Part shown: piece after piece, positions 5,123 through 51,445 of the stretch | Position numbering within the stretch: position 1 is the stretch's first letter | Layout of the letters: each line of letters opens with the position of its first letter | Source of the DNA: Nitrospinota bacterium | GTDB lineage: Bacteria > Nitrospinota > Nitrospinia > UBA9942 | Direction of reading: 5' to 3' | Length of the DNA: 64,000 bases | NCBI GenBank assembly: GCA_016194325.1 | Contig: JACQBS010000051.1 | Span: 7,855-71,854 of the forward strand | Translations under genes and position numbers: made by a program | Notes under the pieces: model-generated | Told to the model about the DNA's origin: nothing | What the model saw: the letters and a program-made list of their open reading frames with translations, nothing else | The model's database searches: none

Positions 5123-5151
5123 TTTGTTCATGTATAGGAAATTATAAAATT

Positions 5152-17531: not shown

Positions 17532-17536
17532 AATTA

Positions 17537-17643
17537 GCCACGGAGACACGGAGGCACAGAGTTTTTAAAAGCGGTTTACACGGTTTGAACAGTTTAAACG
17601 GTTTAATCTGGTTTATATCTCTGTGTCTCTGTGACTCTGTGGC
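17537..17643 (+). repeat. Tandem-unit hairpin element, CACAGAG/CTCTGTG family with CGGTTTAAA-repeat loop (copy 2)
   Basis: Left arm gccacggagacacggaggcacagag; right arm tctctgtgtctctgtgactctgtggc, about 21/25 complementary. The loop aaaagcggtttacacggtttgaacagtttaaacggtttaatctggtt is homologous to the loop of 1715..1816. Confidence 0.85.
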
Positions 17644-17659
17644 AAGAAAGGGTGAAATT

Positions 17660-19160: not shown

Positions 19161-19168
19161 TAAAACTT

Positions 19169-36403: not shown

Positions 36404-36439
36404 GAGAAGAAAATTGGAAATTCTTATAGGAGGATTACC

Positions 36440-39400
36440 ATGAACAGAAAAGAAATAGTGTTAGTGAATAGTGTCAGTGTCAGAAAGAAAATGCTTACAC
36501 TTACACTTACACTTACACTTACACTAATGCTTTCAGTTTATGCCTTTCCATGGAGTGAGCCGGTTATTATAGACTCAGGACCTTTCAATGCCTACAGGAC
36601 TGATATTGCATTTGACTCCAGGGGTAATGCCATAAGTGTATTTGAACAGAAGAGTGGTGATTTCTATAGAATATTTGCTAACAGATATGTCAATGGCAAG
36701 GGTTGGCAGGGGACGGTTACAATAGATGCTAATAGCGGTGATGCCTATAGGGCTCAGGTGGCATTAGATAAAGAAGGGAATGCTATGGCAGTATTCAAAC
36801 AAGCAAACAGGGTCTTTGCCAACCGATATATTTATAATGAGGGTTGGCAGGGGACTGTCCCTATTGATAATGGCACAGGTAATGTCGATGGGCAGGATAT
36901 AGTCTTTGACAGTGAGGGGAATGCTGCTGCAGTCTTTGAGGAGTATAATGGTAAGGAATTTGGAATATATGTAAATCTCTATTCTTCTACTGACACTAAT
37001 ACTAACACTGACACTTCTAAAAGTAGCTGGTCTGGGGCTTTCCGGATAGATACTGGTCATGGTAATGCCTTTTTCCCATATCCACTATTTGATGACAAAG
37101 GTAATCTTTATGTAATTTATTATAAGGAAGAGTCCAGTGGGCTGGAGGTTTATGTCAGCCGGTTACAGAAGCCAGAAGTTAGAAGCCAGAAGTTAGAAGC
37201 CAGAAGTCAGAAGATAACTTATGGAAACATAGTACACAAGAAAGAGAAATGGGTTGAAAAGAAAAGTGAAATAGGGAGAGGAATTAAGTCTGTATATAAT
37301 CCCATGTTTTTAAGTGAGCTCAAAAAGAGGATATATTCGGGGAACTACTCCTACTCCCGCTGGGAGACCCCTTCAAAAATAGATTCAAGGTTCAGAGATG
37401 CATACAGACCAACCCTTCTTGCTAATGGGAATGGAGAGGTAACTGCACTATTTGTAAAATGGGATGGCGAATATTTAAGTGGCTATATGGTTAGCCACAG
37501 AAATGGTAAATGGGGCAAAATAGAGGAGATTGATGCAGGGAAGGGTGATGTGGAGCATATAAGAGGTGCAGTAAATTTCAAAGGTGAAATGGCAGTCGTA
37601 TTTACACAGTGGGTGGATGATAAACAAGGGGCAAGGGGCAAGGGGCAAGGGGCAAGGGGTAATGAAAATTTAAGGATACATGCAAGGATATATTCCCCCT
37701 TAACAAAGGGGGATAGGGGGTTGTCTGGCTGGGGGGAGGCTAAAATCATAGACGGAGGTAAAAAAGATGCCTACAATCCAAGTATTATATTTACCAATAG
37801 TGGTGAAATTATTGCTGTCTGGTGTCAGTGGGAGAAAGCGAATGTTAAGTCATATACAAATATTTACAGAAATGGAATAGGGTGGGGAAATGCAGAACGG
37901 CTTGAGAATAAAGAGGGTGAGACCTGTGGTGTAAGGATTGCATCAGGATCGGATGGTAAGGTCATTGCTATATTTGAGCAGGATGGTGTTAATTCAGAAG
38001 CCAGAAGCCAGAAGATAGAAGTAGTAGCCGTTTCTGACGGCGATAAAGCAAGAAGCCTGCCCCTGCATGATGTAAGCAGGGGAATAAACAGGATATTTGC
38101 AGTGGAATTTAAAAACACTGACACTGTCACTAACACGGACACTTATACCGTAAGAAAGCTTACCAGTGGAGATAGGGAGGATTATTATGCGGAGTTCAGT
38201 CCTGATGGAAAAATGATTGTCTTTGTTTCAAAACATGGAAAATATTCTAATCTCTATATTATGGATGCGGATGGAAAGAACATGAGACAATTAACTTCCG
38301 GTGATGTAACTGATACAGCCCCTGTTTTTACACCTGATGGAGGAAAGATTATCTTTGCCTCAAACAGGATTGCTGAAGGATGGGATATCTGGTCTGTCCG
38401 CCCCGATGGCTCTGAGCTTACCCGTATTACAAAATGGAGCAGAAACGAATACTCTCCACATCCCACATCTGATGGTAAAGGTGTGCTCTATGTCTCTACT
38501 GCAGGTGGTGACCATGCCATCTGGAGTATGGATATAAATGGAGATAATCCGAGACGATTAACCTCAGGAGGAACAGGTGATTGGTTCCCTGCAATGAATC
38601 CGAATGGTAGAGAAATTGTCTTTGTAAGCACGAGGCTGGGATATGGCGATATATGGACGATAGATCCGGTGGAAAAGAAATATCATAGATTGACCTATTC
38701 TGACCTGCCAGAGTTTTCACCGGCATGGAGCCCTGATGGCTCAAAGATTGCCTATGTGACTAACAAAGGTGGGGAATTTGATATCTGGATTATGGATAGA
38801 GACGGAAAAAATAAGAAGAGGCTGACAAAAGGGATATCAGATAGAAATTGGGGAAATAGGTTCTCGGCGATTAAGATAATGGAGACCGCCGGGTATTATC
38901 ATCTCTCATGGCATCCTGACGGGACAAAAATCCTTTTTACAGAATGGGGGGATAATGAAAAAGAGAGCTGCATTTCAATACTTGATTTTGATAAGGCTAT
39001 TATAGATAGATTGGAAGCAGATGGAACATCTATCCCAGAGTATACCTTGATTGGAGAGGGGGAACTGACAAAAGGCGAATGGGAGGATTTTGCTCCCTCA
39101 TTTAGTCCTGATGGTATATCCCTCACCTTTTCATCCAACAGGAGCGGTAACTGGAATATATGGAGTATGGAATTTAATGGAGAAAACTTAAGGCAGCTTA
39201 CGGATGAGAAGGCTGATGCTCTTGCCCCTGTCTTCAGTCCCGACGGCAAAGAAATAGCCTTTTTGAGAAGCCAGAAGCCAGAAGTCAGAAGCCAGAAGGA
39301 TGAAACAAATTTTGAAAATCGTCAATCTTCAATCGTCAATCTTCAATATGATTTGTGGCTAATGAAAAGTGATGGGAGTGGTGCGAGGCAGGTTACAAAA

Positions 39401-39985
39401 GATATTCAGGTTATATCTTATCCTGCATGGAATCCGAATGGTAAAGAAATAGCCTTTGTCGCTCAAGGGAAGGATGTTCCTGAAATATGGACATACAACT
39501 TTGAAAACTCTAAAGTGCGAAGACTTATCACGGCTTACAACTCACAACTCAAGACTCAAGATTCATTAAGCTATCCCTTCATAAAGTTCTTGTATCGTAT
39601 AGGGTATAATCCTGCTGGTGATAAAATTACCTTTGAATCTAATCGTTCAGGAAATGTAGAGATATGGACAATGAGGAGTGATGGGACTAATCTTGCCCGT
39701 ATTACAAATGGGGATAGTCCGCACTGGAATCCTATCTGGAGTCCTGATGGGAAGATGATAGCCTATACAACCGATAAGTTAGGGGAAAAAGCAGGACATC
39801 ATAACTGGCGTAATTACAATATTTGGGTAGCTGATCCAGAGACACATGAAGAGATGCTCATTACAGGTGAAGAGCAGATAGACTGGAATCCTGTATGGAG
39901 CCCCGATGGTAAAAAAATCGTCTATGTTACAAACCGTTCAGGTGATTTTAAACATTTCAACCTGTGGGTGCTGTATTTGAAGTGA
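36440..39985 (+). CDS. Secreted two-part beta-propeller protein: novel N-terminal repeat region + TolB-like PD40 repeats; carries at least 10 repeat-derived in-frame segments
   Basis: The leader is MNRKEIVLVNSVSVRKKMLTLTLTLTLTLMLSVYA. The N-terminal half has ~45-aa repeats (W.G...ID.G...AY....A.D..GNA.AVF.Q......IFANRY). The C-terminal half has PD40 blades (FSPDGK.I.F.S...G..NIW.M..DG.N.RQLT). The conserved tail is NRSGDFKHFNLWVLYLK. Confidence 0.8.
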   Translation: MNRKEIVLVNSVSVRKKMLTLTLTLTLTLMLSVYAFPWSEPVIIDSGPFNAYRTDIAFDSRGNAISVFEQKSGDFYRIFANRYVNGKGWQGTVTIDANSGDAYRAQVALDKEGNAMAVFKQANRVFANRYIYNEGWQGTVPIDNGTGNVDGQDIVFDSEGNAAAVFEEYNGKEFGIYVNLYSSTDTNTNTDTSKSSWSGAFRIDTGHGNAFFPYPLFDDKGNLYVIYYKEESSGLEVYVSRLQKPEVRSQKLEARSQKITYGNIVHKKEKWVEKKSEIGRGIKSVYNPMFLSELKKRIYSGNYSYSRWETPSKIDSRFRDAYRPTLLANGNGEVTALFVKWDGEYLSGYMVSHRNGKWGKIEEIDAGKGDVEHIRGAVNFKGEMAVVFTQWVDDKQGARGKGQGARGNENLRIHARIYSPLTKGDRGLSGWGEAKIIDGGKKDAYNPSIIFTNSGEIIAVWCQWEKANVKSYTNIYRNGIGWGNAERLENKEGETCGVRIASGSDGKVIAIFEQDGVNSEARSQKIEVVAVSDGDKARSLPLHDVSRGINRIFAVEFKNTDTVTNTDTYTVRKLTSGDREDYYAEFSPDGKMIVFVSKHGKYSNLYIMDADGKNMRQLTSGDVTDTAPVFTPDGGKIIFASNRIAEGWDIWSVRPDGSELTRITKWSRNEYSPHPTSDGKGVLYVSTAGGDHAIWSMDINGDNPRRLTSGGTGDWFPAMNPNGREIVFVSTRLGYGDIWTIDPVEKKYHRLTYSDLPEFSPAWSPDGSKIAYVTNKGGEFDIWIMDRDGKNKKRLTKGISDRNWGNRFSAIKIMETAGYYHLSWHPDGTKILFTEWGDNEKESCISILDFDKAIIDRLEADGTSIPEYTLIGEGELTKGEWEDFAPSFSPDGISLTFSSNRSGNWNIWSMEFNGENLRQLTDEKADALAPVFSPDGKEIAFLRSQKPEVRSQKDETNFENRQSSIVNLQYDLWLMKSDGSGARQVTKDIQVISYPAWNPNGKEIAFVAQGKDVPEIWTYNFENSKVRRLITAYNSQLKTQDSLSYPFIKFLYRIGYNPAGDKITFESNRSGNVEIWTMRSDGTNLARITNGDSPHWNPIWSPDGKMIAYTTDKLGEKAGHHNWRNYNIWVADPETHEEMLITGEEQIDWNPVWSPDGKKIVYVTNRSGDFKHFNLWVLYLK
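37166..37214 (+). repeat. In-frame (YAGAAGN)7 heptamer tandem repeat
   Basis: cagaagc cagaagt tagaagc cagaagt tagaagc cagaagt cagaaga encodes QKPEVRSQKLEARSQK. Related blocks lie at 37995..38022, 39265..39299, 46664..46691 and 60542..60569. Confidence 0.9.
37625..37659 (+). repeat. In-frame perfect (CAAGGGG)5 heptamer tandem repeat
   Basis: caagggg x5 (35 nt, not a multiple of 3) encodes QGARGKGQGARG within the TolB-like 1 CDS. Confidence 0.95.
39265..39344 (+). repeat. In-frame composite repeat (SAGAAGY)5 + (AATCKTC)4 at the variable loop of TolB-like paralogue 1
   Basis: gagaagc cagaagc cagaagt cagaagc cagaagg ... aatcgtc aatcttc aatcgtc aatcttc encodes RSQKPEVRSQKDETNFENRQSSIVNLQ. Confidence 0.9.
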
Positions 39986-39990
39986 TAATT

Positions 39991-40073
39991 AGTGCAGAGT
40001 ATCAAAGTATCAAAGAGTCAAAGTATCATAGATTAAAGACTTTGACACTCTGACACTTTGACACTTTGACTCT
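39991..40073 (+). repeat. Intergenic octamer-unit hairpin (AGTCAAAG/CTTTGACA) between TolB-like genes 1 and 2
   Basis: Left arm agtgcagagtatcaaagtatcaaagagtcaaagtatca; 9-nt loop; right arm gactttgacactctgacactttgacactttgactct. It starts 6 nt after stop 39985 and ends 16 nt before ATG 40089. No T-tract. Confidence 0.85.
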
Positions 40074-40088
40074 ATAAGGGGGTTTACT

Positions 40089-42122
40089 ATGAATATAAAA
40101 AAACTGACACTCACACTCACACTGACACTCACACTCACACTGACACTCACACTGGCATATGCGCAGGAGCTTCCCTATACTGTCAGGAATATTACCGATG
40201 GAGAGAGAATAGATTTTCATCCGGAATTCAGCCCTGATGGGAATGAGCTCGTATTTGCCTCTAAAACAGAGATAAGCGAAGATGATAAAAAGAAAGAGTT
40301 TTGGGGTACCAGTCCCTATTATGTGAACTTATGGCTCATGAACTCAGACGGAAGGAACAAACGGCAGTTGACCACTGATAAAGCAATAGATTGTTATCCA
40401 TCGTTTACCACTGATGGAGAAAAGGTTCTTTTTGTCTCCAACAGGGGTGGGCAGTGGGATATCTGGTCTATAAAAAAAGATGGCTCAGGACTTACCCGTC
40501 TTACAAATAATACTGATAAAGATTACTCGCCAAAGGTAACACCGGATGGTAAACATATTCTATTCTTCAGCACACCAACATCAAGTGAAGTTGGTTATAT
40601 TACAGAAAGTGTATGGATTATGGATATGGATGGAAAGAATGCAAAGAGATTGACCTCCGGAGGCAAGGGGGATTGGTATCCCTCTATGAACCCTGATGGT
40701 AAGGAAATTATATTTGCAAGCATGCGGCTTATAGGTGGCAGTCTCTGGACAATAGATAGGGAAGGAAAGAATTACAGGAGATTGACCTATGGAAAGGTGC
40801 TGGAGTTTTTTCCCAACTGGAGTCCTGATGGGGAAAAAATCGCCTATGTTTCAAGAAGGGAGCATGCCTCCTTTGATACTGTAGGCGATACCGAGAAAGA
40901 CCCGCTTGAAATCTGGATTATGGACAGAGACGGAAATAATAAAAGGCAATTAACAAAAAATATATCAGGGGGTATATGGGATTCAAGATTCAACTTAAGA
41001 AAACCCCTTGATTTTATCAGTTATTATCATTTGTCATGGCACCCTGACGGCACAAAGATTGCTCTTACTACATGGGATAGAGGACAAAAGGGTAGCTATA
41101 TCAGTGTAATTGAGTTCGGCAGAGATACTTTAAATAAATTGCCTGCCTTAAAAAACGATACACTTCCTCAATATACTTTGATTGGAGAAAGGGAGCTTAC
41201 TGCCGGTGAGTGGGAGGATTTCGGTCCCTCCTTCAGTCCTGATGGTAATACGATAGCCTTTTCATCAAACAGGTCGGGTAATTGGGATATCTGGAGTATA
41301 GGGGCTGATGGTGAGGGAGTGAAGCAACTTACAAAAAATCCATCCACAGAAATTGCCCCTGTCTTCAGTCCTGATGGTAAAGAGATAGCCTACCTCAAAG
41401 AGGCAAATCCAAAATCCGAAATCAGAAATCCGAAATATAATATGTGGATAATGAAAAGCAACGGGGAGGAGGCACGAGAGGTTACAGGAGCGATTCCTGT
41501 TCTATCTTATCCTGCATGGCATCCTGCTGGTAATGAGATTGCCTTTATATCAAAAGGGGATGAGGGAATTGGAATATGGGTTTACAATGTCATTCAACAA
41601 AAGAGCAAAAAGGTAGCTACTATATGGAATAGCGAAAGAGAACAAGAGGCAAGAATACGTGCAGGGGAGGCTTTAGCCTCCCAAAGAGGCAAAAGGTATT
41701 ATCCCTTTAATGAGCTATTCCTCTACCGAATAGATTATAATAATAAAGGAGATAAAATTACCTTTGAGTCAAATCTTTCTGGTAATGTAGAAATATGGGT
41801 AATGAACAGTGATGGAAGGGATATGAGTAAGGTTACAACAGGGAGTAGTCCGCACTGGAATCCTGTATGGAGTCCTGATGGAAATAGAATAGCTTATGCA
41901 ACAGAGAAACTTGCTTCAAACTTAGGGCCTCCTTTTTGGCCAGATAATAATTATAATATCTGGCTGGCTGATATGAGTACAGGAAAAGAAGAGGCACTTA
42001 CAGCAGAGGAGCAAACCGATTGGAATCCTGCATGGAGCCCGGACGGAAAAAGAATCGCATATGTAACCAACAGGTCAGGTGATTTTAAACATTTCAGTAT
42101 ATGGCTGTTGTATTTGAAATAG
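40089..42122 (+). CDS. Secreted TolB-like PD40 beta-propeller repeat protein (about 12 blades)
   Basis: The signal peptide MNIKKLTLTLTLTLTLTLTLTLAYA is encoded by (CTGACACTCACACTCACA)3. It has about 12 blades with FSPDG/WSPDG...I.F.SNRSG.WDIW. The tail is NRSGDFKHFSIWLLYLK. Confidence 0.85.
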   Translation: MNIKKLTLTLTLTLTLTLTLTLAYAQELPYTVRNITDGERIDFHPEFSPDGNELVFASKTEISEDDKKKEFWGTSPYYVNLWLMNSDGRNKRQLTTDKAIDCYPSFTTDGEKVLFVSNRGGQWDIWSIKKDGSGLTRLTNNTDKDYSPKVTPDGKHILFFSTPTSSEVGYITESVWIMDMDGKNAKRLTSGGKGDWYPSMNPDGKEIIFASMRLIGGSLWTIDREGKNYRRLTYGKVLEFFPNWSPDGEKIAYVSRREHASFDTVGDTEKDPLEIWIMDRDGNNKRQLTKNISGGIWDSRFNLRKPLDFISYYHLSWHPDGTKIALTTWDRGQKGSYISVIEFGRDTLNKLPALKNDTLPQYTLIGERELTAGEWEDFGPSFSPDGNTIAFSSNRSGNWDIWSIGADGEGVKQLTKNPSTEIAPVFSPDGKEIAYLKEANPKSEIRNPKYNMWIMKSNGEEAREVTGAIPVLSYPAWHPAGNEIAFISKGDEGIGIWVYNVIQQKSKKVATIWNSEREQEARIRAGEALASQRGKRYYPFNELFLYRIDYNNKGDKITFESNLSGNVEIWVMNSDGRDMSKVTTGSSPHWNPVWSPDGNRIAYATEKLASNLGPPFWPDNNYNIWLADMSTGKEEALTAEEQTDWNPAWSPDGKRIAYVTNRSGDFKHFSIWLLYLK

Positions 42123-42135
42123 GGGAGGATTTACC

Positions 42136-44403
42136 ATGAACAGAAAAAAAATAGTGTCAGTGAACAGTGTCAGTGTCAGTAAAAAAAACAGTGTTAGCAA
42201 AAGGATACTAATACTGATACTAATACTGACACTAACACTGACACTTGAAGATGCCTTTGCGGACTCAAAGGGGAGACCCGACCACATGTCAAAGGAGATA
42301 ATAAAGACTAAAGAAGTAGTCCCTGTTCCTCCCGATATTCAGGTGCCTTACTCGGTCAAGAGGATTAGTGACGGCAGTTCCATTGATTACCATCCGGAGT
42401 TTAGCCATGATGGAAAACAGATTGTATTTATTAGAAAAATAGATAATGATGAAAATATGAAAAAGGGGGAATTCTGGCACAAGACACCTTATTCCCTGAA
42501 TCTATGGCTCATGGATTCAGATGGCAATAACAGAAGACAGTTAACATCAGGGGATGTGATGGACTTTGCTCCAAGGTTTACACCTGATGGAAAAAGGGTC
42601 ATTTTTGTCTCCAATCGCAGGGATGGCAGATGGGATATATGGTCAATAGATATTGATGGTTCAAACCTTAACAGAATTACAGAGACAGAAGGGAATACAG
42701 GGCTATGGGAAAGGTCACACTATCCTTTCCCTACGCCAGATGGTAAGGAGATGATTTTCGTAATCTATAAAAAATCCCACGGAAGTGTATGGCTTATGGA
42801 TATGAAAAGCAGAAATATAAGAAGAATAACTTCAGGGGGATTTGGAGATGACTTTCCGATGATGTCCCCTGATGGTAAAGAGATTGTCTTCAAAAGCACG
42901 AGACAGGGAAATGGAGATGTATGGTCAATAGATAGAACAGGAAAAAATTACAAAAGATTGACCTATGAGGATTACCCGGAATTTTACCCTGCATGGAGTC
43001 CGGATGGGACTAAAATATCCTATGTCACCAACAAAGGGGGTATCTTTGATATATGGATAATGAATAGGGATGGTAAACACAAAAAGAAGCTGACAAAATT
43101 CCTCTCGCAGGGGGCATGGGGAAAAAGGTTTGATTATAACGACCTTGTAGAGACCGGATATTATCATGTCTCATGGCATCCGGATGGAACAAAGCTTGCC
43201 CTGACCATCTGGGATCCTGATAAAAAAGAAAGTTATTTGACAACACTCGACTTTGGAAAGGATATTGGCAGGGTAATGGATAGCCTGCCTGATGAAAAGG
43301 AGACCCTTCCTGATTACACCCTTATTGGAGAGAAAGATATTACCGGCGGTGGAAGCTGGGATGATTTTGGACCATCTTTCAGCCCCGATGGAAAAACAAT
43401 AGCCTTTGCTTCTAATAGAAAGGGGAACTGGGATATCTGGAGTATCAGCGCAGAGGGTGAGGGATTGAAACAGATGACGGAGGACACTGGTAGTGAGCTT
43501 GCCCCCGTATTCAGTCCTGATGGTAAAGAGATAGCATTTTTAAAAGAAATTGGACAGGATATACAGGATGGACAGGAAAAAAATATAAATCCAGTAAATC
43601 CTGTTAATCCTGTCAAAAAATACTATTCATTATGGCTCATGAATAGTGATGGGAGTGGTGCAAGGCAGATTACTGAGGGTATTAAGGCTATATCTTATCC
43701 TGCATGGAATCCAGATAGTAAAGAGATTGCCTTTGTAGCAAAAGGAGATAAAGGTCCTGAGATACAATTAATCCCCCTTAATAAAGGGGGGCAGGAGGTT
43801 GTTACTGTGAGCCGTGTTATTTCTATATGGGACACAGAGAAGCCTAATCCTTCTATGTTTCCTTTTGCAAAGGATACAAAGGATGAGGAGTTTACTCCTG
43901 AGGAAATGGCAAAGATGAAAAAACTATTCCCGAATGCAAAAGTCGGGATGGGTGGATTGACCCCCTTTACAAAGGGTGAAACCATAGATGTTCCTTATCC
44001 ATTGAAAGAGTTTCTCTACCGTGTAGATTATAATGCCGCAGGTGACAAAATCATATTTGAGTCTAATAAAAGCGGGAATATAGATATATGGTCGGTAAAA
44101 AAAGATGGGACAGAGATGACTCGTATTACAAAAGAAAGTGGACCGCATCTAAATCCTGTCTTTAGCCCTGATAATAAAAGAATCGCCTATGCCCGCAGAA
44201 AATTGGAGTTAAGCTCATATAATGAAGTAAATTATAACATCTGGGTTGCCGATGCGCATACCGGTGAAGAAATGCCTATTAACGGTGAGGAGCAGACAGA
44301 CTGGAATCCTGCATGGAGTCCGGATGGAAAAAAAATCGCCTATGTTACTAATCGTTCAGGGGAATTTAAGCATTATAATATATGGATGCTGTATTTAAAA
44401 TAG
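42136..44403 (+). CDS. Secreted TolB-like PD40 beta-propeller repeat protein
   Basis: The leader is MNRKKIVSVNSVSVSKKNSVSKRILILILILTLTLTLEDAFA, followed by PD40 blades throughout. The tail is NRSGEFKHYNIWMLYLK. Confidence 0.85.
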   Translation: MNRKKIVSVNSVSVSKKNSVSKRILILILILTLTLTLEDAFADSKGRPDHMSKEIIKTKEVVPVPPDIQVPYSVKRISDGSSIDYHPEFSHDGKQIVFIRKIDNDENMKKGEFWHKTPYSLNLWLMDSDGNNRRQLTSGDVMDFAPRFTPDGKRVIFVSNRRDGRWDIWSIDIDGSNLNRITETEGNTGLWERSHYPFPTPDGKEMIFVIYKKSHGSVWLMDMKSRNIRRITSGGFGDDFPMMSPDGKEIVFKSTRQGNGDVWSIDRTGKNYKRLTYEDYPEFYPAWSPDGTKISYVTNKGGIFDIWIMNRDGKHKKKLTKFLSQGAWGKRFDYNDLVETGYYHVSWHPDGTKLALTIWDPDKKESYLTTLDFGKDIGRVMDSLPDEKETLPDYTLIGEKDITGGGSWDDFGPSFSPDGKTIAFASNRKGNWDIWSISAEGEGLKQMTEDTGSELAPVFSPDGKEIAFLKEIGQDIQDGQEKNINPVNPVNPVKKYYSLWLMNSDGSGARQITEGIKAISYPAWNPDSKEIAFVAKGDKGPEIQLIPLNKGGQEVVTVSRVISIWDTEKPNPSMFPFAKDTKDEEFTPEEMAKMKKLFPNAKVGMGGLTPFTKGETIDVPYPLKEFLYRVDYNAAGDKIIFESNKSGNIDIWSVKKDGTEMTRITKESGPHLNPVFSPDNKRIAYARRKLELSSYNEVNYNIWVADAHTGEEMPINGEEQTDWNPAWSPDGKKIAYVTNRSGEFKHYNIWMLYLK
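43552..43615 (+). repeat. Complete hairpin element inserted in frame in TolB-like paralogue 3 (GGACAGGAT / AATCCTGT units)
   Basis: Sequence: ggacaggatatacaggatggacagga-aaaaaatat-aaatccagtaaatcctgttaatcctgtc. The arms are reverse-complementary. It encodes GQDIQDGQEKNINPVNPVNPV at the same loop that carries other repeats in the three paralogues. Confidence 0.9.
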
Positions 44404-44460
44404 TGAAAGTGTAAGTGAAAGTGTAAGTGAAAAGAGTTAACTTACACTTACACTTGCACT
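44402..44460 (+). repeat. Intergenic hexamer/heptamer hairpin (AGTGTAAGTGAAAG / CTTACACTTACA) between TolB-like genes 3 and 4
   Basis: Sequence: agtgaaagtgtaagtgaaagtgtaagtgaaaag-agttaa-cttacacttacacttgcact. It overlaps stop codon 44401..44403 and ends 13 nt before ATG 44474. Confidence 0.85.
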
Positions 44461-44473
44461 ATAAGGAGGAGCC

Positions 44474-46636
44474 ATGAATAGAAAAAAAATAGTGAGGGGG
44501 TTAGTCCCCCTTAATAAAGGGGGATTGAGGGGGTTGTTGATTTCACTTACACTTTCACTTACACTTACACATGCACTTGCACAGGAGCTTCCATATACTG
44601 TCACTGATATCACTAATGGAGATACTGTAGATTTTCACCCTGAGTTCAGTCCGGATGGGAAGTATATTGTTTTTTCCTCCATGGCAGTGGACGGCAGCTA
44701 TTTCACTGATATGCACTTATGGATTATGGATGCTGATGGAAAGAACAGGCGGCGGATAACATCAAAGAGTGCGATGTATCTTCAGCCGACCTTCACTCCT
44801 GATGGGGAAAGGATTGTTTTTATTTCCAATATAGAGGGCGGCTCATGGGATATCTGGTCAATTAAAATTAACGGTTCAGGGCTTACTCGCCTGACGAGAG
44901 ATAATCAGAAAGAATACTTCCCTATTGTAACATCCGATAGTAAAAGTCTTGTTTTTATAAGAAGATATGGTGGAACAGACAGCGTGTGGACCATGGATAT
45001 TGATGGAAACAACATGAGGAGATTGAGTTCCGGAGGGAATGGAGACTCCTTTCCGGCGATTTGCCATGATGGAAAGGAGATTATTTTTTCTACCACTCGG
45101 CTTGGTAACAGCAATCTCTGGACGATAGACAGAGAAGGGAAAGAGTATAAGAGACTTACCTTTGAAGATACAATAGAGTTTTCACCCTCATGCAGCCCAG
45201 ATGGAGCTAAGATTGCTTATGTTGCTATAGAGGGAGGGGCAAAGACTTACAGTAAGGCACGGAAGGGGTTTGAGTTCAAAGAGATATCCTACAGGGAAAG
45301 GTCCTTTGATATATGGCTAATCAACAGAGATGGAAGTGGCAGAAGGCAGATTGCCAGAAATATATTTGAGGTAGGTCCAGGTATGAAGCTATTCAAGTCT
45401 GTAGATATTATAGAAGGAATCAACTACTACCACATCTCATGGCATCCCAGTGGTAAGAAGATTGCGTTGACCAGGTGGAATAAGGATAGACCGGGGAGTC
45501 GTATTAGCACTCTTGAATTTGATATGGACATTATTGAGAGACTGCCGGTTACAGAAACACCCGTTCCAGAGTATTCACTGCTCAGGGAAAAAGACCTCAC
45601 CGGTGGAAGTTGGGATGACCTTGCCCCGAGCTTTGCCCCTGATGGCAAAAGCATAGCCTTTGCCTCCAACAGGAGCGGCAACTGGGATATATGGAGACTT
45701 AGGATTGCGGATTGCGGATTGCGGATTGCGGATTGCAAATCAGAGTTTGATGATGCAAAGCTGGAACAGCTTACAAAAGGGGATGACTATGAGTTAGCAC
45801 CTGCATACAGCCCGGATGGGAAAGAGATAGCATTTTTGAGAAGACAGAAGCCTGCCCTGAGCAGAGCCGAAGGGACAGAAGACAGACTTCAATACGATAT
45901 ATGGCTCATGAATAGTGATGGGAGCAACGCAAGGCAAATTACAAAAGGTGTACCTGTTCTTTCCTATCCTGCATGGAATCCTGATGGGAAAGAGATTGTT
46001 TTTATATCGGAAGGGAATGGATATGCTCCAGAGATATGGGGATACAGCATCGCTGAAAGCAGCCTTAAAAAGATTACGGTCATAAAGGATGCTTCTGTCC
46101 TCGCCTCCAGATTAAACTTGTCCCCGCAAGCTTTAAGCGGGGATAATAAAACGAAGATTGGCCTCATCGCCGACCAGCGATATCCGGATGCCTCCAATCC
46201 TCTATCAATCGGTGCAGGCGGTATTTATCCTTATAATGAATTCCTTTATCGTATAAATTATAGCCCTCGCGGTGACAGAATCATCTTTGAATTGGATAGA
46301 AATGGCAGTGTAGGTATCTGGAATGTCAATAGTGATGGCAATAGTCTCGCCCGTGTTCTGACAGATGATTTACTCCGCTGGACTCCGACATTCAGTCCTG
46401 ACGGCAGAAAGATAGCCTATTCTAAAAAGGCTGATAAACAGTTTGCCCCGATATACTGGACAGATTACAATATCTGGATAACCGATGCTGAGAGCGGTGA
46501 AGAGATGAGGATTAACGGTGAAGAACAGATAGACTGGTTTCCCTCATGGAGTCCAGATGGAAGAAAAATCGCCTATGTTACTAATCGCTCAGGAGATTTT
46601 AAGCATTTTAATATATGGCTGCTGTATTTGAAATAG
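44474..46636 (+). CDS. Secreted TolB-like PD40 beta-propeller repeat protein
   Basis: The leader MNRKKIVRGLVPLNKGGLRGLLISLTLSLTLTHALA contains the G5/C5 palindrome element. PD40 blades follow. The tail is NRSGDFKHFNIWLLYLK. Confidence 0.85.
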   Translation: MNRKKIVRGLVPLNKGGLRGLLISLTLSLTLTHALAQELPYTVTDITNGDTVDFHPEFSPDGKYIVFSSMAVDGSYFTDMHLWIMDADGKNRRRITSKSAMYLQPTFTPDGERIVFISNIEGGSWDIWSIKINGSGLTRLTRDNQKEYFPIVTSDSKSLVFIRRYGGTDSVWTMDIDGNNMRRLSSGGNGDSFPAICHDGKEIIFSTTRLGNSNLWTIDREGKEYKRLTFEDTIEFSPSCSPDGAKIAYVAIEGGAKTYSKARKGFEFKEISYRERSFDIWLINRDGSGRRQIARNIFEVGPGMKLFKSVDIIEGINYYHISWHPSGKKIALTRWNKDRPGSRISTLEFDMDIIERLPVTETPVPEYSLLREKDLTGGSWDDLAPSFAPDGKSIAFASNRSGNWDIWRLRIADCGLRIADCKSEFDDAKLEQLTKGDDYELAPAYSPDGKEIAFLRRQKPALSRAEGTEDRLQYDIWLMNSDGSNARQITKGVPVLSYPAWNPDGKEIVFISEGNGYAPEIWGYSIAESSLKKITVIKDASVLASRLNLSPQALSGDNKTKIGLIADQRYPDASNPLSIGAGGIYPYNEFLYRINYSPRGDRIIFELDRNGSVGIWNVNSDGNSLARVLTDDLLRWTPTFSPDGRKIAYSKKADKQFAPIYWTDYNIWITDAESGEEMRINGEEQIDWFPSWSPDGRKIAYVTNRSGDFKHFNIWLLYLK
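45702..45736 (+). repeat. In-frame perfect (GGATTGC)5 heptamer tandem repeat
   Basis: ggattgc x5 (35 nt) encodes LRIADCGLRIADC. It replaces the SxxxDGEG turn that is conserved in the other three paralogues (NWDIWSIGADGEGVKQLT). Confidence 0.95.
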
Positions 46637-46649
46637 TGGAGGGTTTACT

Positions 46650-47607
<958 letters not shown>

Positions 47608-47618
<11 letters not shown>

Positions 47619-48510
47619 CAAAAGTGTCAGTGACAGTGTCAGGAAAAAAATACTTACAGTTGTATTGACACTTACACTTACACTACCAATTGTTGTTAAT
47701 GCGGAAGAGGGAAAGGATGCAGAAGCACCTATAGAAATGGTCTTCGTTAAAGGGGGTTGTTTCCAGATGGGTGACCCCTTTGGAGATGGGGAGAATGATG
47801 AAGTGCCAGTCCATGAGGTTTGCGTGAATGATTTTTATATCGGCAAGTATGAAGTGACAGTAGAAGAGTTTGGAAAGTTTGTGAAAGAGACAGGTTACAG
47901 CACTGATGCAGAAAAAATGGGCGGTTGTTTTGGAAAGGTTGGTTACAAGTGGAGAAAAAGAAAGGATTTTAACTGGAGTAAGGTGGATTTCCCTCAGACA
48001 GATAGACACCCCGCAGTTTGTATAAGCTATAATGATGCAAATGAATTTATGAAATGGCTGAATAAAAAATTTGTGGTGAGCAAAACGAATTCATCGGGTG
48101 GTAAATACCGTCTGCCTACAGAGGCTGAATGGGAATATGCAGAGAGGAGCGGCGGTAAGGCGGAAAAATGGGCAGGGACAAATAACGAGTCGGAGGTTTC
48201 GGATTATGTATGGTATGATAAAAATTCCGGAGGTAAAACGCATCCTGTGGGTCAGAAAAAACCCAACGGCTTGGGTTTATACGATATGAGCGGCAATGTA
48301 TGGGAGTGGGTAGAGGATTGGTATGAAGTTGATTATTATGATAAAACTCCTAAAACCAATCCGTTAAATGCGAAGCCCAGCCATGCAAAGTCAATGCGCA
48401 GTGGTCCATGGAGCGTTCCTTTGCATGCAGTAAGGGTCTTTTATCGCGGCAGCGATATACCATATAGTATATGCGACGGACTCGGTTTTCGGGTTGCAAA
48501 GACCCCTTGA
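47608..48510 (+). CDS. Secreted FGE-sulfatase-fold protein (second subfamily)
   Basis: The leader is MQDDKSVSDSVRKKILTVVLTLTLTLPIVVNA. Motifs: MVFVKGGCFQMGD, FYIGKYEVTVEEFGKFVKETGY, HPAVCISYNDANEFMKWLN, YRLPTEAEWEYAERSGG, GLYDMSGNVWEWVEDWY, GFRVAKTP. The start overlaps the upstream stop by 11 nt; the listed ORF start at 47497 is out-of-frame read-through of the upstream gene. Confidence 0.8.
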
Positions 48511-48627
48511 AGGATTATAAAAATAATGGAACACGAATTACACGAAAAAGGTGTCAGTGAACAGTGTCAGTGTCAGAAAAAATACTTACATATTCCCCCC
48601 TTAATAAAGGGGGTGAGGGGGTTGTTA

Positions 48628-49491
48628 ATGAGAAGGGTTGCACTCATACTTACACTCACACTTACACTTATTTCAGATAGTGTAAACGCTAAGGAATGCA
48701 CACTGCTGGAGCCTGAGGCACTGAAAAGGGCTATAGAAAATAAATCTATATATGAGATGATTATATTTGATGTTCGTCCGCGGTATACTCCTGACTCGAA
48801 GCGTAGGTTTGATCTTGAGACTAATGTGAAGCGTATCCCGTCGAGTCTCTGGGCGCCTCTTGAAAAGATTGAACTGGACCTGGTTGGTAAGGTGGAGGAA
48901 CTTATTGATAGGAATGTTATTCTGGTGGGGGAGAATACAGAGTCCGCAGAAAGTGTATGCAGGTTTATGATGAAAAAAGATTATGGAATTCGTAATATAT
49001 ATGTCTTAAAAGGGGGTATGGAGAAATGGGATGGTCCTATTAAAGATGATATTACAAAAGTTGAATGTGCGATGATTACCTCCAGAGAGTTGATGAATAT
49101 GATGAAATCTGGAAAAAATGTTGAGATAGTTGACAAACGTTTAGCAGATGAATATCATGAGGGACATATACCAGGTGCAGTATTACGACCTGGCGAAATG
49201 AGACAGCCTTCACTAAAATATCTTATAACAAAACGGGAATTGCGTATAAAAAGGGCGCGGGAGAATACTATCGTCGTCTATGTGTATGATAATGAAGTTC
49301 AAACCATGCTGGATTGTAAGTATGAAAAATATTTCTCACATCCTGCATGGTATCCTGATGGTAATAATGATAATAAGAAAGCAAAAAAAGATGTTTATGT
49401 GCTTAGAGGCGGAATGAAGGTATGGGAAGGAGAAGTAAAAAAAGATTATCTGGAAATATTGAAAAAGAGAGTTAAGGAGAAACTGAAATGA
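48628..49491 (+). CDS. Secreted tandem rhodanese-homology-domain protein lacking the active-site Cys
   Basis: The signal peptide is MRRVALILTLTLTLISDSVNA. There are two rhodanese-like units: IIFDVRP...ILVGENTESAES...VLKGGMEKW and VEIVDKRLADEYHEGHIPGAV...VVYVYDNEVQT...VLRGGMKVW. The positions of the catalytic C-x5-R loop carry no Cys. The ORF-track start at 48526 translates repeat elements. Confidence 0.7.
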   Translation: MRRVALILTLTLTLISDSVNAKECTLLEPEALKRAIENKSIYEMIIFDVRPRYTPDSKRRFDLETNVKRIPSSLWAPLEKIELDLVGKVEELIDRNVILVGENTESAESVCRFMMKKDYGIRNIYVLKGGMEKWDGPIKDDITKVECAMITSRELMNMMKSGKNVEIVDKRLADEYHEGHIPGAVLRPGEMRQPSLKYLITKRELRIKRARENTIVVYVYDNEVQTMLDCKYEKYFSHPAWYPDGNNDNKKAKKDVYVLRGGMKVWEGEVKKDYLEILKKRVKEKLK

Positions 49492-49494
49492 ATT

Positions 49495-49563
49495 AAGTGT
49501 AAGTGAACAGTGACAGTGTCAGTTAAAGGTCTTTTGCTGACACTAACACTAATCACTGACACT
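49495..49563 (+). repeat. Intergenic heptamer hairpin (GTGTCAG/CTGACAC) between the two rhodanese-like genes
   Basis: Sequence: aagtgtaagtgaacagtgacagtgtcagt-taaaggtcttttg-ctgacactaacactaatcactgacact. It starts 4 nt after stop 49491, and RBS AGGAGG follows at 49570. Confidence 0.85.
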
Positions 49564-49580
49564 TTATTAGGAGGTGCAAT

Positions 49581-50378: not shown

Positions 50379-50440
50379 GAGAGTCAAAGAGAGACTGAAT
50401 TGGTTAAGGTTTTGACTATTTGATATTTATTCTTTCGGCT

Positions 50441-51355: not shown

Positions 51356-51422
51356 GAGTCAAAGAGTTAAAGTGTCAGAGAGTCAGGGCTTTGATACTTT
51401 GATACTCTGATACTTTGACACT
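51355..51422 (+). repeat. Intergenic octamer hairpin (AGTCAAAG/CTTTGATA) downstream of FGE-like gene
   Basis: Sequence: agagtcaaagagttaaagtgtcagagagtcag-gg-ctttgatactttgatactctgatactttgacact. It starts at the stop codon of 50441..51355. Confidence 0.85.
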
Positions 51423-51445
51423 ATTATATATCCCCACAAAATTCC

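What the first reader, a model, noticed from the sequence alone, without database searches (positions are those of the whole stretch)
39262..39350. One loop, four paralogues, four different tandem-repeat inserts: a hypervariable site in the TolB-like array
In all four TolB-like proteins the conserved flanks (A)PVFSPDGKEIAFL(K/R) and (Y/L)xxW(L/I)M(K/N)SDG enclose a segment that differs in each copy. Each is built from its own micro-repeat:
- Paralogue 1 (39265..39344): (SAGAAGY)5 + (AATCKTC)4, giving SQKPEVRSQKDETNFENRQSSIVNLQ.
- Paralogue 2 (41404..41438): (NAAATCN)5, giving ANPKSEIRNPK.
- Paralogue 3 (43552..43615): a complete GGACAGGAT/AATCCTGT hairpin, giving GQDIQDGQEKNINPVNPVNPV.
- Paralogue 4 (45838..45893): CAGAAG remnants, giving RQKPALSRAEGTEDRLQ.

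An ordinary PD40 blade linker is only a few residues long. Independent acquisition at the identical position implies one of two things. Either there is a targeted insertion or repair hotspot, or there is a diversification mechanism acting on a surface loop.
Basis: partly seen in the sequence, partly recalled or inferred. Interest (0 to 1): 0.82.

Follow-up and report, generated by a model that had tools for sequence, protein, structure and literature searches.

The report
Repeat-built hypervariable loop in propeller paralogues
One surface turn of four neighbouring beta-propeller genes in an uncultivated groundwater bacterium has been enlarged by short tandem DNA repeats that are swapped among the gene copies; this is a local case of a repeat load covering the whole genome, not a dedicated diversification machine.

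Summary
All four PD40 double-propeller paralogues carry an in-frame, repeat-built insert at the same beta-turn: 26, 12, 26 and 17 residues. Distant homologues have 6-7 residues there, and the nearest outgroup has 5 (RDETN).

- **Not four independent acquisitions.** Every one of about 45 homologues from this Nitrospinota clade has an insert at this site. The "spacer" of the paralogue-1 insert is the ancestral DETN turn, flanked by two heptamer arrays.
- **Cassettes are shared and swapped.** About five cassette types recur, and they do not follow orthology.
- **The site is hypervariable.** In a genome 91-95% identical, all four loops differ from the window's. Two replacements carry donor-type flanking bases, as expected of short-patch gene conversion between paralogues.
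- **The phenomenon is genome-wide.** The window has 99 short tandem-repeat loci against about 13 expected, many of them hairpin pairs. They sit between genes, in signal-peptide regions and in frame in other protein loops.
- **No dedicated machinery seen.** I found no reverse transcriptase and no template repeat.

Best reading: a permissive loop holding selfish or neutral repeat cassettes that turn over by slippage, deletion, nested insertion and paralogue gene conversion. It resembles in-frame Rickettsia palindromic elements and cyanobacterial heptamer repeats. An adaptive loop-variation role is not excluded.

The parts
36440..39985 (+). P1: secreted PD40 double-propeller protein (1181 aa) with a long N-terminal extension. 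It hosts the focal loop.
   Evidence: ORF. Pfam PD40, E = 3.5e-71. AlphaFold model of the C-terminal 661 aa has pLDDT 85. Foldseek matches tricorn, S9-peptidase and TolB propellers.
39222..39268 (+). Conserved left flank, encoding APVFSPDGKEIAFLR (two blade strands). It can serve as a homology arm for exchange between paralogues.
   Evidence: Repeat family D9: 78-86% DNA identity among P1, P2 and P3 here, against 61-67% for other blades. Strands 407-412 and 418-424 of the model.
39269..39298 (+). Module A: a 30-nt heptamer array (AGCCAGA/AGTCAGA, equivalent to CAGAAGY), read as SQKPEVRSQK.
   Evidence: TRF; sequence. The same unit family occurs at 37166, 37995, 46664 and 60542. The unit is stop-free in all three frames.
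39299..39310 (+). Ancestral turn core GATGAAACAAAT (DETN).
   Evidence: The outgroup orthologue L111 reads TTGAGA|GATGAGACAAAT|TCGCTTTGG, i.e. ILR-DETN-SLW, with no repeats.
39311..39346 (+). TTTGAAAAT plus module C: heptamer array (CGTCAAT/CTTCAAT) x~4, read as FENRQSSIVNLQ.
   Evidence: TRF 39317-39347; sequence. In the clade loci examined, the core plus C combination is found only in PD40 loops.
39347..39487 (+). Right flank (YDLWLMKSDG...), the stretch with the highest synonymous-site identity among the four paralogues.
   Evidence: Third-codon-position identity is 0.64-0.73 here against about 0.4-0.58 elsewhere. Family D16.
41400..41435 (+). P2 loop, type IV: (AAATCCR) x4.6, read as EANPKSEIRNPK. 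Not a hairpin.
   Evidence: In the 91%-identical relative this loop is replaced by the P3-type hairpin together with P3-type flanking bases.
43546..43623 (+). P3 loop, type III: a 9-mer array plus its complement, forming a strong hairpin. Read as EIGQDIQDGQEKNINPVNPVNPVKKY.
   Evidence: TRF. Fold z = -8.1. In the 95%-identical relative it is replaced by a type I cassette.
45842..45892 (+). P4 loop: CAGAAGA units interrupted by a small palindrome (about 45851-45878), plus a CTTCAA remnant of module C. Read as RQKPALSRAEGTEDRLQ.
   Evidence: Fold z = -2.1. The same palindrome family occurs at 38056 and 51560.
45702..45736 (+). (GGATTGC)5: a perfect heptamer array inserted in frame in P4 only. 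This one is stable.
   Evidence: TRF. Present only in P4. Identical in L004. The unit motif is also present at the corresponding P4-type site in L003.
40089..46636 (+). P2, P3 and P4: tandem paralogues (677, 755 and 720 aa), 49-54% identical to the P1 C-terminal part. They are the donors and recipients of cassette exchange.
   Evidence: The outgroup locus has a single PD40 gene.

Best explanation
**What it is.** The segment is an in-frame, lineage-specific enlargement of one beta-turn in a blade of the second propeller of a secreted PD40 double-propeller protein. The turn joins the strand ending ..EIAFL to the strand starting YDLWLM.. .

**How it is built.** The ancestral 4-5-residue turn (DETN) is still present in the middle of the P1 insert. 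A heptanucleotide tandem array lies on each side of it.

**History (inferred).** The insert most likely arose once, before or during the tandem duplication that produced the four paralogues. The site has kept repeat-built cassettes ever since.

**How the cassettes turn over.**
1. Slipped-strand expansion and contraction, which homogenises unit variants across an array.
2. Deletions, and nested insertion of small palindromes.
3. Short-patch gene conversion between the tandem paralogues, using the well-conserved PD40 flanks as homology arms. This moves whole cassettes from one paralogue to another.

**Why it persists.** This lineage's genome carries a heavy load of 6-10-nt tandem repeats, often as hairpin pairs, plus small palindromes. 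In coding DNA they are found where they are in frame and stop-free, in signal-peptide regions and in what look like surface turns.

**Shown:** the anatomy, the ancestral state, the genome-wide repeat load, the differences between close genomes, and the donor-type flanks.
**Inferred:** the slippage and gene-conversion mechanisms, the neutrality of the variation, and any role of hairpin-induced breaks in starting the conversion.
For: **Ancestral state**
- Distant homologues have a 6-7-residue SNRSGN-type turn; clade members carry roughly 9-40 residues there.
- Outgroup L111 has RDETN, with DNA that aligns to the P1 "spacer".

**Shared cassettes**
- Type I (A + DETNF + C) is exactly 78 nt in W1, L003-820, L003-2956 and L002-5342.
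- The type I core and module C, and the type II-C, III and IV modules, occur in the clade loci only in PD40 loops. Module A is dispersed across the genome.

**Cassette type does not follow orthology**

| Orthologue | Window | Close relative (L001/L004) | L002 | L003 |
|---|---|---|---|---|
| P2 | IV | III | II | I |
| P3 | III | I with nested palindrome | Ia | IV |

**Turnover between genomes 91-95% identical**
- Every indel and divergence hot spot falls on a repeat site, including the P3 and P4 loops.
- The P1 array changed unit in concert, AGAAGCC to AGATGCA, and lost the core and module C.

**Gene-conversion footprints**
- The relative's P2 patch carries P3-type flanks: GCATTTTTAAAAGAA... 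and ...TATTCATTGTGG.
- The relative's P3 patch carries P4-type TATGACATCTGG.
- Synonymous-site identity among paralogues is highest just 3' of the loop.

**Genome-wide load**
- 99 repeat loci against 6-20 in shuffled sequence.
- 15-29 loci per 10 kb in clade loci against a median of 3.5 in other phyla.
- 12 of 32 adjacent repeat pairs fold as strong hairpins.
- 14 of 18 internal arrays whose period is not a multiple of three are stop-free in all frames, against 7 of 18 intergenic ones.

**Other in-frame insert sites**
- Two near-identical ~75-nt cassettes lie inside one FGE-sulfatase gene and are absent from its four paralogues.
- Small palindromes sit in frame in nine ORFs.
- By my reading of the alignment against repeat coordinates, nearly every length difference between P1 and its outgroup orthologue is a repeat or a palindrome.

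**Location and exclusion**
- The loop has low model confidence, between two confident strands.
- No reverse transcriptase and no Rfam family were found.
Against: - The type I cassette keeps exactly 78 nt and a similar peptide in several genomes and paralogues. That could reflect functional constraint rather than neutrality.
- Types I and IV are not hairpins, so a hairpin-break trigger cannot be general.
- Where types II, III and V came from is unknown.
- Only one closely related genome was available, and all the data are metagenome assemblies with no read-level population data.
- The synonymous-site signal is modest and its pairwise comparisons are not independent.
- The stable (GGATTGC)5 array shows that slippage is not uniformly fast.
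Confidence: 0.7

Rival explanations
1. Adaptive loop-variation system. The paralogue array would work as a cassette-exchange system. Gene conversion, possibly started at the repeat or hairpin DNA, would deliberately reshuffle a binding-face loop to diversify secreted propellers, in the manner of pilE/pilS or vlsE antigenic variation.
For: - Cassette types are shuffled among paralogues between genomes 91-95% identical.
- Most cassette modules are specific to the loop.
- The flanks are conserved, and synonymous identity is raised next to the loop.
- The proteins have signal peptides.
- One contig, L080, carries two alternative cassettes side by side.
Against: - Identical kinds of repeats sit in many other places, including intergenic DNA and unrelated proteins.
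- There are no silent donor cassettes; every copy is a full-length gene.
- The proteins have signal peptides but their final location is unknown; they may be periplasmic rather than surface-exposed.
- No evidence of selection is available.
- The cassettes encode low-complexity peptides dictated by the repeat unit.
Confidence: 0.15
2. Recurrent targeted insertion. Mobile hairpin or repeat elements would home independently into this one turn in each paralogue, as the first reader proposed with its insertion hot spot.
For: - Dispersed cassettes do reach new sites: two near-identical copies lie at non-homologous positions of one FGE-sulfatase gene.
- A small palindrome is nested in the P4 loop and in the relative's P3 loop.
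- Types II and III are hairpins with no trace of the ancestral core.
Against: - There are no conserved element ends or target duplications around the (CAGAAGN)n tracts.
- Type I contains the ancestral turn, so it grew in place.
- The loop-specific modules are not found elsewhere in the loci examined.
- The whole clade has the site occupied.
- Replaced patches include paralogue-type flanking bases, which insertion would not bring along.
Confidence: 0.08
3. Contingency locus. Heptamer copy-number changes would shift the reading frame and switch the C-terminal part of the propeller on and off (phase variation).
For: - Heptamer units are not multiples of three.
- One metagenome contig, L080, has a frameshift and stop at the loop.
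- Simple-repeat phase variation is well known in pathogens (the paper's introduction).
Against: - All 17 loops read at the DNA level are in frame.
- The module lengths of 30, 21 and 27 nt are each multiples of three.
- (GGATTGC)5 is identical in two genomes.
- The L080 case is a duplication of the flank with two cassettes, not a one-unit slip.
Confidence: 0.04
4. Diversity-generating retroelement or other templated hypermutation acting on the loop.
For: An Avd-like PF05635 gene and five FGE-sulfatase-fold genes (typical retroelement target folds) are in the window.
Against: - No reverse transcriptase is present in any ORF.
- The FGE-sulfatase C-termini have no non-coding template-like copy in the window.
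- Differences between loops are whole-cassette replacements and repeat-unit changes, not adenine-specific substitutions.
Confidence: 0.01
5. Assembly artefact. The repeat-rich loops would have been mis-assembled in the metagenome-assembled genomes.
For: All sequences are short-read metagenome assemblies. Cassettes share stretches of about 45 nt between paralogues. L080 looks like two alleles joined end to end.
Against: - The same architecture is seen in independent projects and assemblies, including Rifle, NC groundwater, JGI and ENA.
- Each replaced cassette is flanked on both sides by the correct orthologous sequence.
- The flanks are only 64-70% identical between paralogues, too divergent for k-mer mis-joins.
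Confidence: 0.02

Closest known systems
Rickettsia palindromic elements (RPEs): selfish repeats inserted in frame in protein-coding genes
   Same: Dispersed short repeat elements sit in frame inside unrelated genes. Their positions are predicted to be compatible with the protein fold, and they add a peptide segment without destroying the protein (MITE review PMC10969869). Here the in-frame cassettes are in the PD40 loops, in an FGE-sulfatase gene and in many P1 sites.
   Different: - RPEs are about 150-bp elements of defined families, each encoding a conserved peptide.
- Here the inserts are 30-100 nt built from 6-10-nt tandem units, often paired with the complementary array.
- One site is shared by all paralogues, and its cassettes are exchanged among them.
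Long simple-sequence repeats of 5-11 nt: STRR heptamers of heterocystous cyanobacteria, TAACTGA repeats of Beggiatoaceae, GGGNATC repeats of Xanthomonas and Nostoc
   Same: Lineage-specific, genome-wide excess of heptamer-class tandem repeats of a few units. They are concentrated between genes and just upstream of or at gene starts, with rare stop-free arrays inside ORFs at protein peripheries (PMC4679880; PMC4692102). Here.
   Different: - Many unit families (6-10 nt) are present rather than one dominant unit.
- Arrays are frequently paired with the complementary array to form hairpins.
- In-frame use is frequent, including signal-peptide regions and an internal propeller turn.
- The lineage is Nitrospinota, which the papers read here do not mention for such repeats.
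Gene-conversion antigenic variation (Neisseria pilE/pilS, Borrelia vlsE); comparison from my own knowledge
   Same: A variable segment bounded by conserved flanks is replaced by the corresponding segment of a paralogous copy. A DNA secondary structure near the site can start the exchange.
   Different: - There are no silent cassettes and no known initiating element.
- There is no evidence of programmed or high-frequency switching, and no evidence of selection.
- All copies are intact genes, and the proteins may be periplasmic rather than surface-exposed.
Simple-repeat contingency loci (phase variation) of Haemophilus and Neisseria
   Same: Tandem repeats lie inside ORFs of secreted or envelope proteins, and the unit length is not a multiple of three (PMC2651432 listed; introduction of PMC4679880).
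   Different: Arrays here are short (about 4 units), and each module is held at a multiple of three. No frame-shifted alleles were seen among the 17 loops.
Diversity-generating retroelements
   Same: They produce a hypervariable surface segment in a ligand-binding protein.
   Different: There is no reverse transcriptase, no template repeat and no adenine-directed substitution pattern.

Membership tests
PD40 (WD40-like) beta-propeller proteins | Multiple PD40 repeats above the Pfam gathering score | tested here: met
   PF07676 E-values of 3.5e-71, 1.4e-64, 7.8e-69 and 2e-56 for P1-P4.
PD40 (WD40-like) beta-propeller proteins | Beta-propeller fold | tested here: met
   AlphaFold2 model with pLDDT 85 and pTM 0.85, all-beta. 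Foldseek matches tricorn protease, S9 peptidase propellers and the TolB propeller, the last with local rmsd 2-4 A over 225-247 columns.
TolB proper (Tol-Pal system) | N-terminal TolB domain (PF04052) followed by one six-bladed propeller | tested here: not met
   No PF04052 hit in P1-P4. The proteins model as a much larger all-beta structure than one propeller. "TolB-like" applies only to the repeat type.
Diversity-generating retroelement target | Reverse transcriptase gene nearby | tested here: not met
   Pfam scan of all ORFs of 110 aa or more in the window found none. The rest of the genome was not available.
Diversity-generating retroelement target | Template repeat matching the variable region, with adenine-specific differences | tested here: not met
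   Loop differences are cassette replacements and repeat-unit changes. The FGE-sulfatase C-termini have no non-coding copy in the window, and the shown repeat families include none.
Long simple-sequence repeats (5-11-nt class; STRR/TAACTGA-like) | Tandem arrays of 5-11-nt units in significant excess over expectation | tested here: met
   99 loci against 6-20 in dinucleotide shuffles. 15-29 per 10 kb in clade loci against a median of 3.5 in other phyla.
Long simple-sequence repeats (5-11-nt class; STRR/TAACTGA-like) | The same unit recurs at many non-homologous loci | tested here: met
   (CAGAAGN)n at 37166, 37995, 39272, 46664 and 60542. Hexamer and octamer families D10 and D12.
Long simple-sequence repeats (5-11-nt class; STRR/TAACTGA-like) | Identity with the published units (CCCCAGT, TTGGTCA, CAACAGT, TAACTGA, GGGNATC) | tested here: not met
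   None of those units appears among the TRF consensus units. Same kind of repeat, different families.
In-frame selfish palindromic elements (RPE-like) | Dispersed element copies inserted in frame in unrelated genes | tested here: met
   Two ~75-nt near-identical cassettes inside FGE-sulfatase gene 17513..18697, related to intergenic copies. The CCCCCTTAATAAAGGGGG-type palindrome sits in frame in six ORFs.
In-frame selfish palindromic elements (RPE-like) | Homology to the Rickettsia RPE families | not tested
   No RPE sequences were compared. The unit structure and length clearly differ from the ~150-bp RPEs described in PMC10969869.
MITE (miniature inverted-repeat transposable element) | Defined terminal inverted repeats and target-site duplications | tested here: not met
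   No conserved ends or duplications flank the (CAGAAGN)n tracts or the loop cassettes.
Gene-conversion cassette variation | Replaced patch carries donor-paralogue flanking substitutions | tested here: met
   The L001 P2 patch has P3-type flanks, and the L004 P3 patch has the P4-type TATGACATCTGG.
Gene-conversion cassette variation | High-frequency switching within a population | not testable with these tools
   No reads or isolates were available. Only two close genomes exist in the protein collection.

The most novel reading that the evidence does not exclude
The short tandem-repeat hairpins of this lineage could be a family of mobile, structure-defined elements, with some copies carrying small genes in the hairpin loop. 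One example is a PDDEXK_3 nuclease gene bracketed exactly by inverted arrays of a 10-mer, an arrangement seen in most of the metagenome contigs examined. Another is an Avd-like four-helix-bundle gene lying between inverted octamer arrays. Gene-less copies would act like miniature derivatives. Breaks made at these hairpins would drive both the spread of cassettes and the cassette-swapping gene conversion at the propeller loop. That would make the PD40 array a real, repeat-driven loop-diversification system.
Probability: 0.12. Interest if true: 0.75.

Novelty: new variant of a known kind. Interest (0 to 1): 0.5.

Why it matters
- **Protein evolution.** In an uncultivated Nitrospinota lineage, short tandem repeats and small palindromes shape protein sequence as well as intergenic DNA. 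They build what look like signal-peptide cores (LTLTLT) and enlarge loops in frame.
- **How loops grow.** One propeller turn records the whole process: the ancestral turn, the flanking repeat arrays, nested insertions, deletions, and exchange between paralogues. This is a concrete natural example of loop growth and diversification by repeat dynamics plus gene conversion.
- **An open question.** It also offers a system for asking how heptamer-class repeats spread in bacterial genomes, a question the TAACTGA study read here leaves open (no transmission mechanism was evident).
- **Annotation.** Such low-complexity segments should not be mistaken for functional motifs or for retroelement targets.

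Tried and rejected
- **Diversity-generating retroelement.** I scanned every ORF of 110 aa or more with Pfam (one search failed on a length limit and was redone). I also looked for template-like copies of the FGE-sulfatase C-terminal regions. No reverse transcriptase or template turned up.
- **Known RNA families.** The Rfam gathering-threshold scan of the window found nothing.
- **Hairpin as a general property of the loop cassettes.** Rejected. The P1 and P2 loops and type IV fold no better than shuffled sequence.
- **Mobile element with defined ends.** No conserved flanks were found around the CAGAAG tracts.
- **PARCEL repeats of Mollicutes.** Read and set aside. They are a 25-residue protein motif, a different thing.
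- **Population variation within 90%-identity protein clusters.** Only the source genome and one relative exist in the collection, so no allele frequencies could be obtained.
- **Literature on PDDEXK_3 / 23S rRNA intervening-sequence proteins flanked by tandem-repeat arms.** Nothing relevant was found.
- ** must be ignored.** The real arms were read and compared.
- **Face of the propeller.** I could not determine which face the loop lies on, because model coordinates are not exposed.
Full report
**1. What is at the coordinates**

The region holds four tandem + strand ORFs: P1 36440..39985 (1181 aa), P2 40089..42122 (677 aa), P3 42136..44403 (755 aa) and P4 44474..46636 (720 aa). All are PD40-repeat proteins with no TolB N-terminal domain. 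A model of the P1 C-terminal 661 residues is confident (pLDDT 85, pTM 0.85). It matches tricorn, S9-peptidase and TolB propellers.

The four proteins align well except for a few variable segments.
- P1: (AGAAGCC) x4.7 at 39266-39298 and (AATCKTC) x4.4 at 39317-39347.
- P2: (AAATCCG) x4.6 at 41405-41436.
- P3: two complementary 9-mer arrays at 43553-43613.
- P4: CAGAAG units split by a small palindrome.

Only the P3 insert is a strong hairpin (z = -8.1). P4 folds weakly (z = -2.1). P1 and P2 do not fold better than shuffled sequence. In the model the P1 insert is a low-confidence segment (pLDDT about 50-64) between strands 418-424 and 450-456 of one blade. It is therefore a turn within a blade, not a linker between blades.

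**2. Ancestral state**

Distant homologues (26-34% identity) have a 6-7-residue SNRSGN-type turn at this position. Every one of the roughly 45 close homologues examined, all labelled Nitrospinae or Nitrospinota where named, carries roughly 9-40 residues there.

The nearest relative without the insert is a Thermodesulfobacteriota MAG. Its locus has a similar gene neighbourhood but only one PD40 gene. It reads ILR-DETN-SLWVM, with DNA TTGAGA|GATGAGACAAAT|TCGCTTTGG. P1 of the window reads TTGAGA|[30-nt heptamer array]|GATGAAACAAAT|[TTTGAAAAT + 27-nt heptamer array + TATGAT]|TTGTGG. The "spacer" of the P1 insert is thus the ancestral turn, and the two arrays grew on either side of it.

**3. Cassette types and their distribution**

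Reading 17 loops at the DNA level gives about five recurring types:

| Type | Structure | Examples |
|---|---|---|
| I | array A (CAGAAGN or GCAAGAR) + DETNF core + array C (AATCKTC), exactly 78 nt | W1, L003-820, L003-2956, L002-5342 |
| Ia | A + a CTTCAA remnant | L002-9741; the window's P4, which adds a nested palindrome |
| II | (GAAGATGA)n + (CTCAACCT)n | L002-7482, L003-9548, L005 |
| III | 9-mer hairpin | window P3, L001 P2 |
| IV | (AAATCCN)n | window P2, L003-5159, L080 |
| V | (AATACGA)n | L003-7397 |

Type does not follow orthology. P2 orthologues carry IV, III, II and I in four genomes. P3 orthologues carry III, I, Ia and IV. Paralogues that are listed with the same longest-contig length, and so are probably on one contig, often share a loop: P0005/P0041 are identical, and P0031/P0045 and P0003/P0021 are nearly so.

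In the clade loci, the type I core and array C and the modules of types II-C, III and IV occur only in PD40 loops. Array A belongs to a family dispersed across the genome.

**4. Hypervariability between close genomes**

The Nitrospinota MAG JACRGN01 aligns to window 38378..41626 at about 91% identity (L001) and to 41486..51693 at about 94-95% (L004). Every indel and divergence hot spot between the two genomes falls on a repeat site, including the P3 and P4 loops. All four loops differ:
- **P1.** All array units changed in concert, AGAAGCC to AGATGCA, and the core and array C were lost.
- **P2.** The relative carries the type III hairpin.
- **P3.** The relative carries a type I cassette with a nested palindrome.
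- **P4.** The relative carries a full type I.

The replaced patches bring a few donor-type flanking bases with them:
- The relative's P2 has P3-type GCATTTTTAAAAGAA... and ...TATTCATTGTGG, then returns to P2 sequence.
- The relative's P3 has the P4-type TATGACATCTGG.

These are patches of about 110-130 nt, as expected of short-patch gene conversion. Two further observations fit:
- Among the window's four paralogues, synonymous-site identity is highest (0.64-0.73 against about 0.4-0.58) in the ~100 nt just 3' of the loop.
- The left flank is also unusually similar between paralogues (family D9).

One JGI contig (L080) has the left flank duplicated. Cassette II follows the first copy and cassette IV the second, and the join creates a frameshift. 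This is either a recombination intermediate or two co-existing alleles joined by the assembler. Not every array is unstable: (GGATTGC)5 in P4 is identical in the window and L004, and the same unit motif is present in L003.

**5. Genome-wide context**

- The window has 99 merged tandem-repeat loci of period 5-18, against 6-20 in dinucleotide shuffles.
- Clade loci have 15-29 loci per 10 kb, against a median of 3.5 in PD40 loci of other phyla.
- The repeats concentrate in 3.5 kb of intergenic DNA (28 loci) and in the first 60 codons of ORFs (29 loci). The 55 kb of internal coding sequence holds 40, many of them weak.
- Twelve of 32 adjacent array pairs fold as strong hairpins.
- Internal arrays whose period is not a multiple of three are nearly always stop-free in all three frames (14 of 18, against 7 of 18 intergenic).

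In-frame inserts are not confined to the PD40 loop:
- One FGE-sulfatase gene carries two near-identical ~75-nt octamer/hexamer cassettes at non-homologous positions. Its four paralogues lack them, and related copies lie between genes.
- CCCCCTTAATAAAGGGGG-type and CCCCTGC-N9-GCAGGGG-type palindromes sit in frame in nine ORFs.
- Comparing the alignment with the repeat coordinates, nearly every length difference between P1 and its outgroup orthologue is a tandem repeat or a palindrome. Other P1 orthologues carry such inserts at still other sites, including the equivalent turn of another blade.

The focal loop is therefore one permissive site among many. What sets it apart is that it is occupied in every paralogue and every genome of the clade.

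**6. Mechanism**

Shown:
- The anatomy and the ancestral core.
- Cassette sharing, and non-orthologous distribution of types.
- Donor-type flanks on replaced patches.
- The genome-wide repeat load, and the frame and stop-codon filter.

Inferred:
- One early acquisition, before or during the paralogue duplication.
- Slipped-strand turnover with concerted homogenisation of units.
- Deletion and nested insertion.
- Short-patch gene conversion between tandem paralogues.
- Possibly, conversion started by breaks at hairpin-forming cassettes. This cannot be general, because types I and IV are not hairpins.

No reverse transcriptase, no template repeat and no Rfam family are present.

**7. Comparison with known systems**

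- **Long simple-sequence repeats.** The repeat load is of the same kind as the 5-11-nt long simple-sequence repeats, the cyanobacterial STRR heptamers and the TAACTGA repeats of Beggiatoaceae (PMC4679880; PMC4692102). The unit families differ, hairpin pairing is frequent, and coding use is much greater.
- **Rickettsia palindromic elements.** The in-frame occupation of permissive protein sites works like these elements (PMC10969869).
- **Antigenic-variation systems.** The cassette swapping works like gene-conversion antigenic variation. The defining features of such systems were either not met or not testable: silent donors, programmed high-frequency switching, and selection.

**8. Verdict**

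The hypervariability is confirmed and extended. Independent acquisition and a dedicated diversification mechanism are not supported. This is a new variant of known kinds of repeat-driven protein variation. It is of moderate interest in itself, and rather more as a window on an unusually repeat-shaped genome.

**Caveats.** All the data are metagenome assemblies. Only one close relative exists. No read-level population data were available. Neutrality against adaptive value is unresolved; the conserved 78-nt type I cassette hints at some constraint.

Noticed in passing
window 17682-17767, 36453-36538, 42149-42234, 47612-47697 (partial at 40063-40148): An ~86-nt dispersed cassette sits at the 5' end of non-homologous genes (FGE-sulfatase and PD40). 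It is made of (AGTGTC)n plus the complementary (GACACT/ACTTAC)n and is a strong hairpin (z = -7.8). Read in frame it gives KIVSVNSVSVSKK..LTLTLTLTL, ending in an AxA-type site, so it looks as if it supplies the charged and hydrophobic parts of the signal peptide. In the 95%-identical relative the P3 copy is replaced by a different-unit hairpin, (ATGCAGT)n/(ACTGCNT)n, z = -4.9.
   Followed up: partly
window 18062-18136 and 18320-18401: Two near-identical ~75-nt octamer/hexamer repeat cassettes (SSVKESESQSVKVKNTDTDT) are inserted in frame at two different positions of one FGE-sulfatase gene. The four paralogues lack them. Related copies lie between genes at 18693, 39995, 51344 and 61965.
   Followed up: yes
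window 10909-11333; loci L081-L105: A PDDEXK_3 nuclease gene (10926..11306) is bracketed exactly by 26-nt inverted arms built of tandem 10-mers (CCACAGATAAACACAGATGAACACAG / CTGTGTTTATCTGTGTTCATCTGTGG). The start codon lies inside the left arm, and the right arm begins just after the stop codon. Gene-less hairpins of the same unit are at 5151-5225 and 54095-54169. In about 15 of 19 metagenome loci carrying homologues (61-98% identical), the same kind of arms (AACCACRGATRAACACRG...) flank the gene. I found no published description.
   Followed up: partly
window 18696-19161: A PF05635 gene (23S rRNA intervening-sequence protein; by my recollection the family that includes the Avd accessory proteins of diversity-generating retroelements) lies between the inverted octamer arrays (AGTATCAR)4.4 and (ACTTTGAC)4.6. 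It sits directly downstream of an FGE-sulfatase-fold gene. No reverse transcriptase or template repeat is in the window.
   Followed up: partly
window 17002, 37695, 43773, 44506, 47043, 48595 (CCCCCTTxxxAAGGGGG type); 38060, 46122, 50895 (CCCCTGC/CCCCGC type): Small G/C-clamped palindromes are inserted in frame in at least nine ORFs, giving peptides such as PLNKGG, PLTKGDRGL and PPLIKGVRGL. One type is nested inside the P4 loop and inside the relative's P3 loop.
   Followed up: partly
window 35867-36415 versus L002 1721-2268: The Uma2-family endonuclease gene is 93% identical to its counterpart in RIFCSPHIGHO2_02_FULL_39_82, while the genes on either side are only 74-78% identical. This suggests recent transfer or concerted evolution of this small nuclease gene. 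A very strong 9-mer repeat hairpin (z = -10.2) lies just upstream at 35703-35822.
   Followed up: no
L080 4347-4640 (JGI 3300025011): The left flank of the loop is duplicated (~77 nt). A type II cassette follows the first copy and a type IV cassette the second, and the join creates a frameshift and stop. This is either a recombination intermediate or two population alleles concatenated by the assembler.
   Followed up: partly
window 39500-39570 versus L001 1078-1175: A second variable region of P1, after EIWTYNF, is entirely different in the 91%-identical relative. There it contains a REP-like palindrome (CCCGTTCGGGGAACGGG...GTGCGTTCC..GAACGCA). In P2-P4 the same region carries long unrelated inserts.
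   Followed up: no
window 45702-45736: The perfect (GGATTGC)5 array, inserted in frame in P4 only (RIADCGLRIADC), is identical in L004, and the same unit motif is present in L003. This heptamer array is stable, unlike the loop cassettes. Its unit is close to the reverse complement of the P2 loop unit, AATCCGC against AATCCGA.
   Followed up: partly
window 1-64000 (gene content): All ORFs of 110 aa or more are on the + strand. The content is as follows.
- A type II/IV secretion ATPase.
- Several multihaem cytochromes, one of 1668 aa.
- A 5499-aa Laminin_G_3 repeat protein.
- Five FGE-sulfatase-fold proteins.
- Two rhodanese proteins.
- A 13-repeat WD40 protein with a 126-nt DNA periodicity (51732-53300).
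- TPR proteins.
- ExbB/ExbD genes.
   Followed up: no
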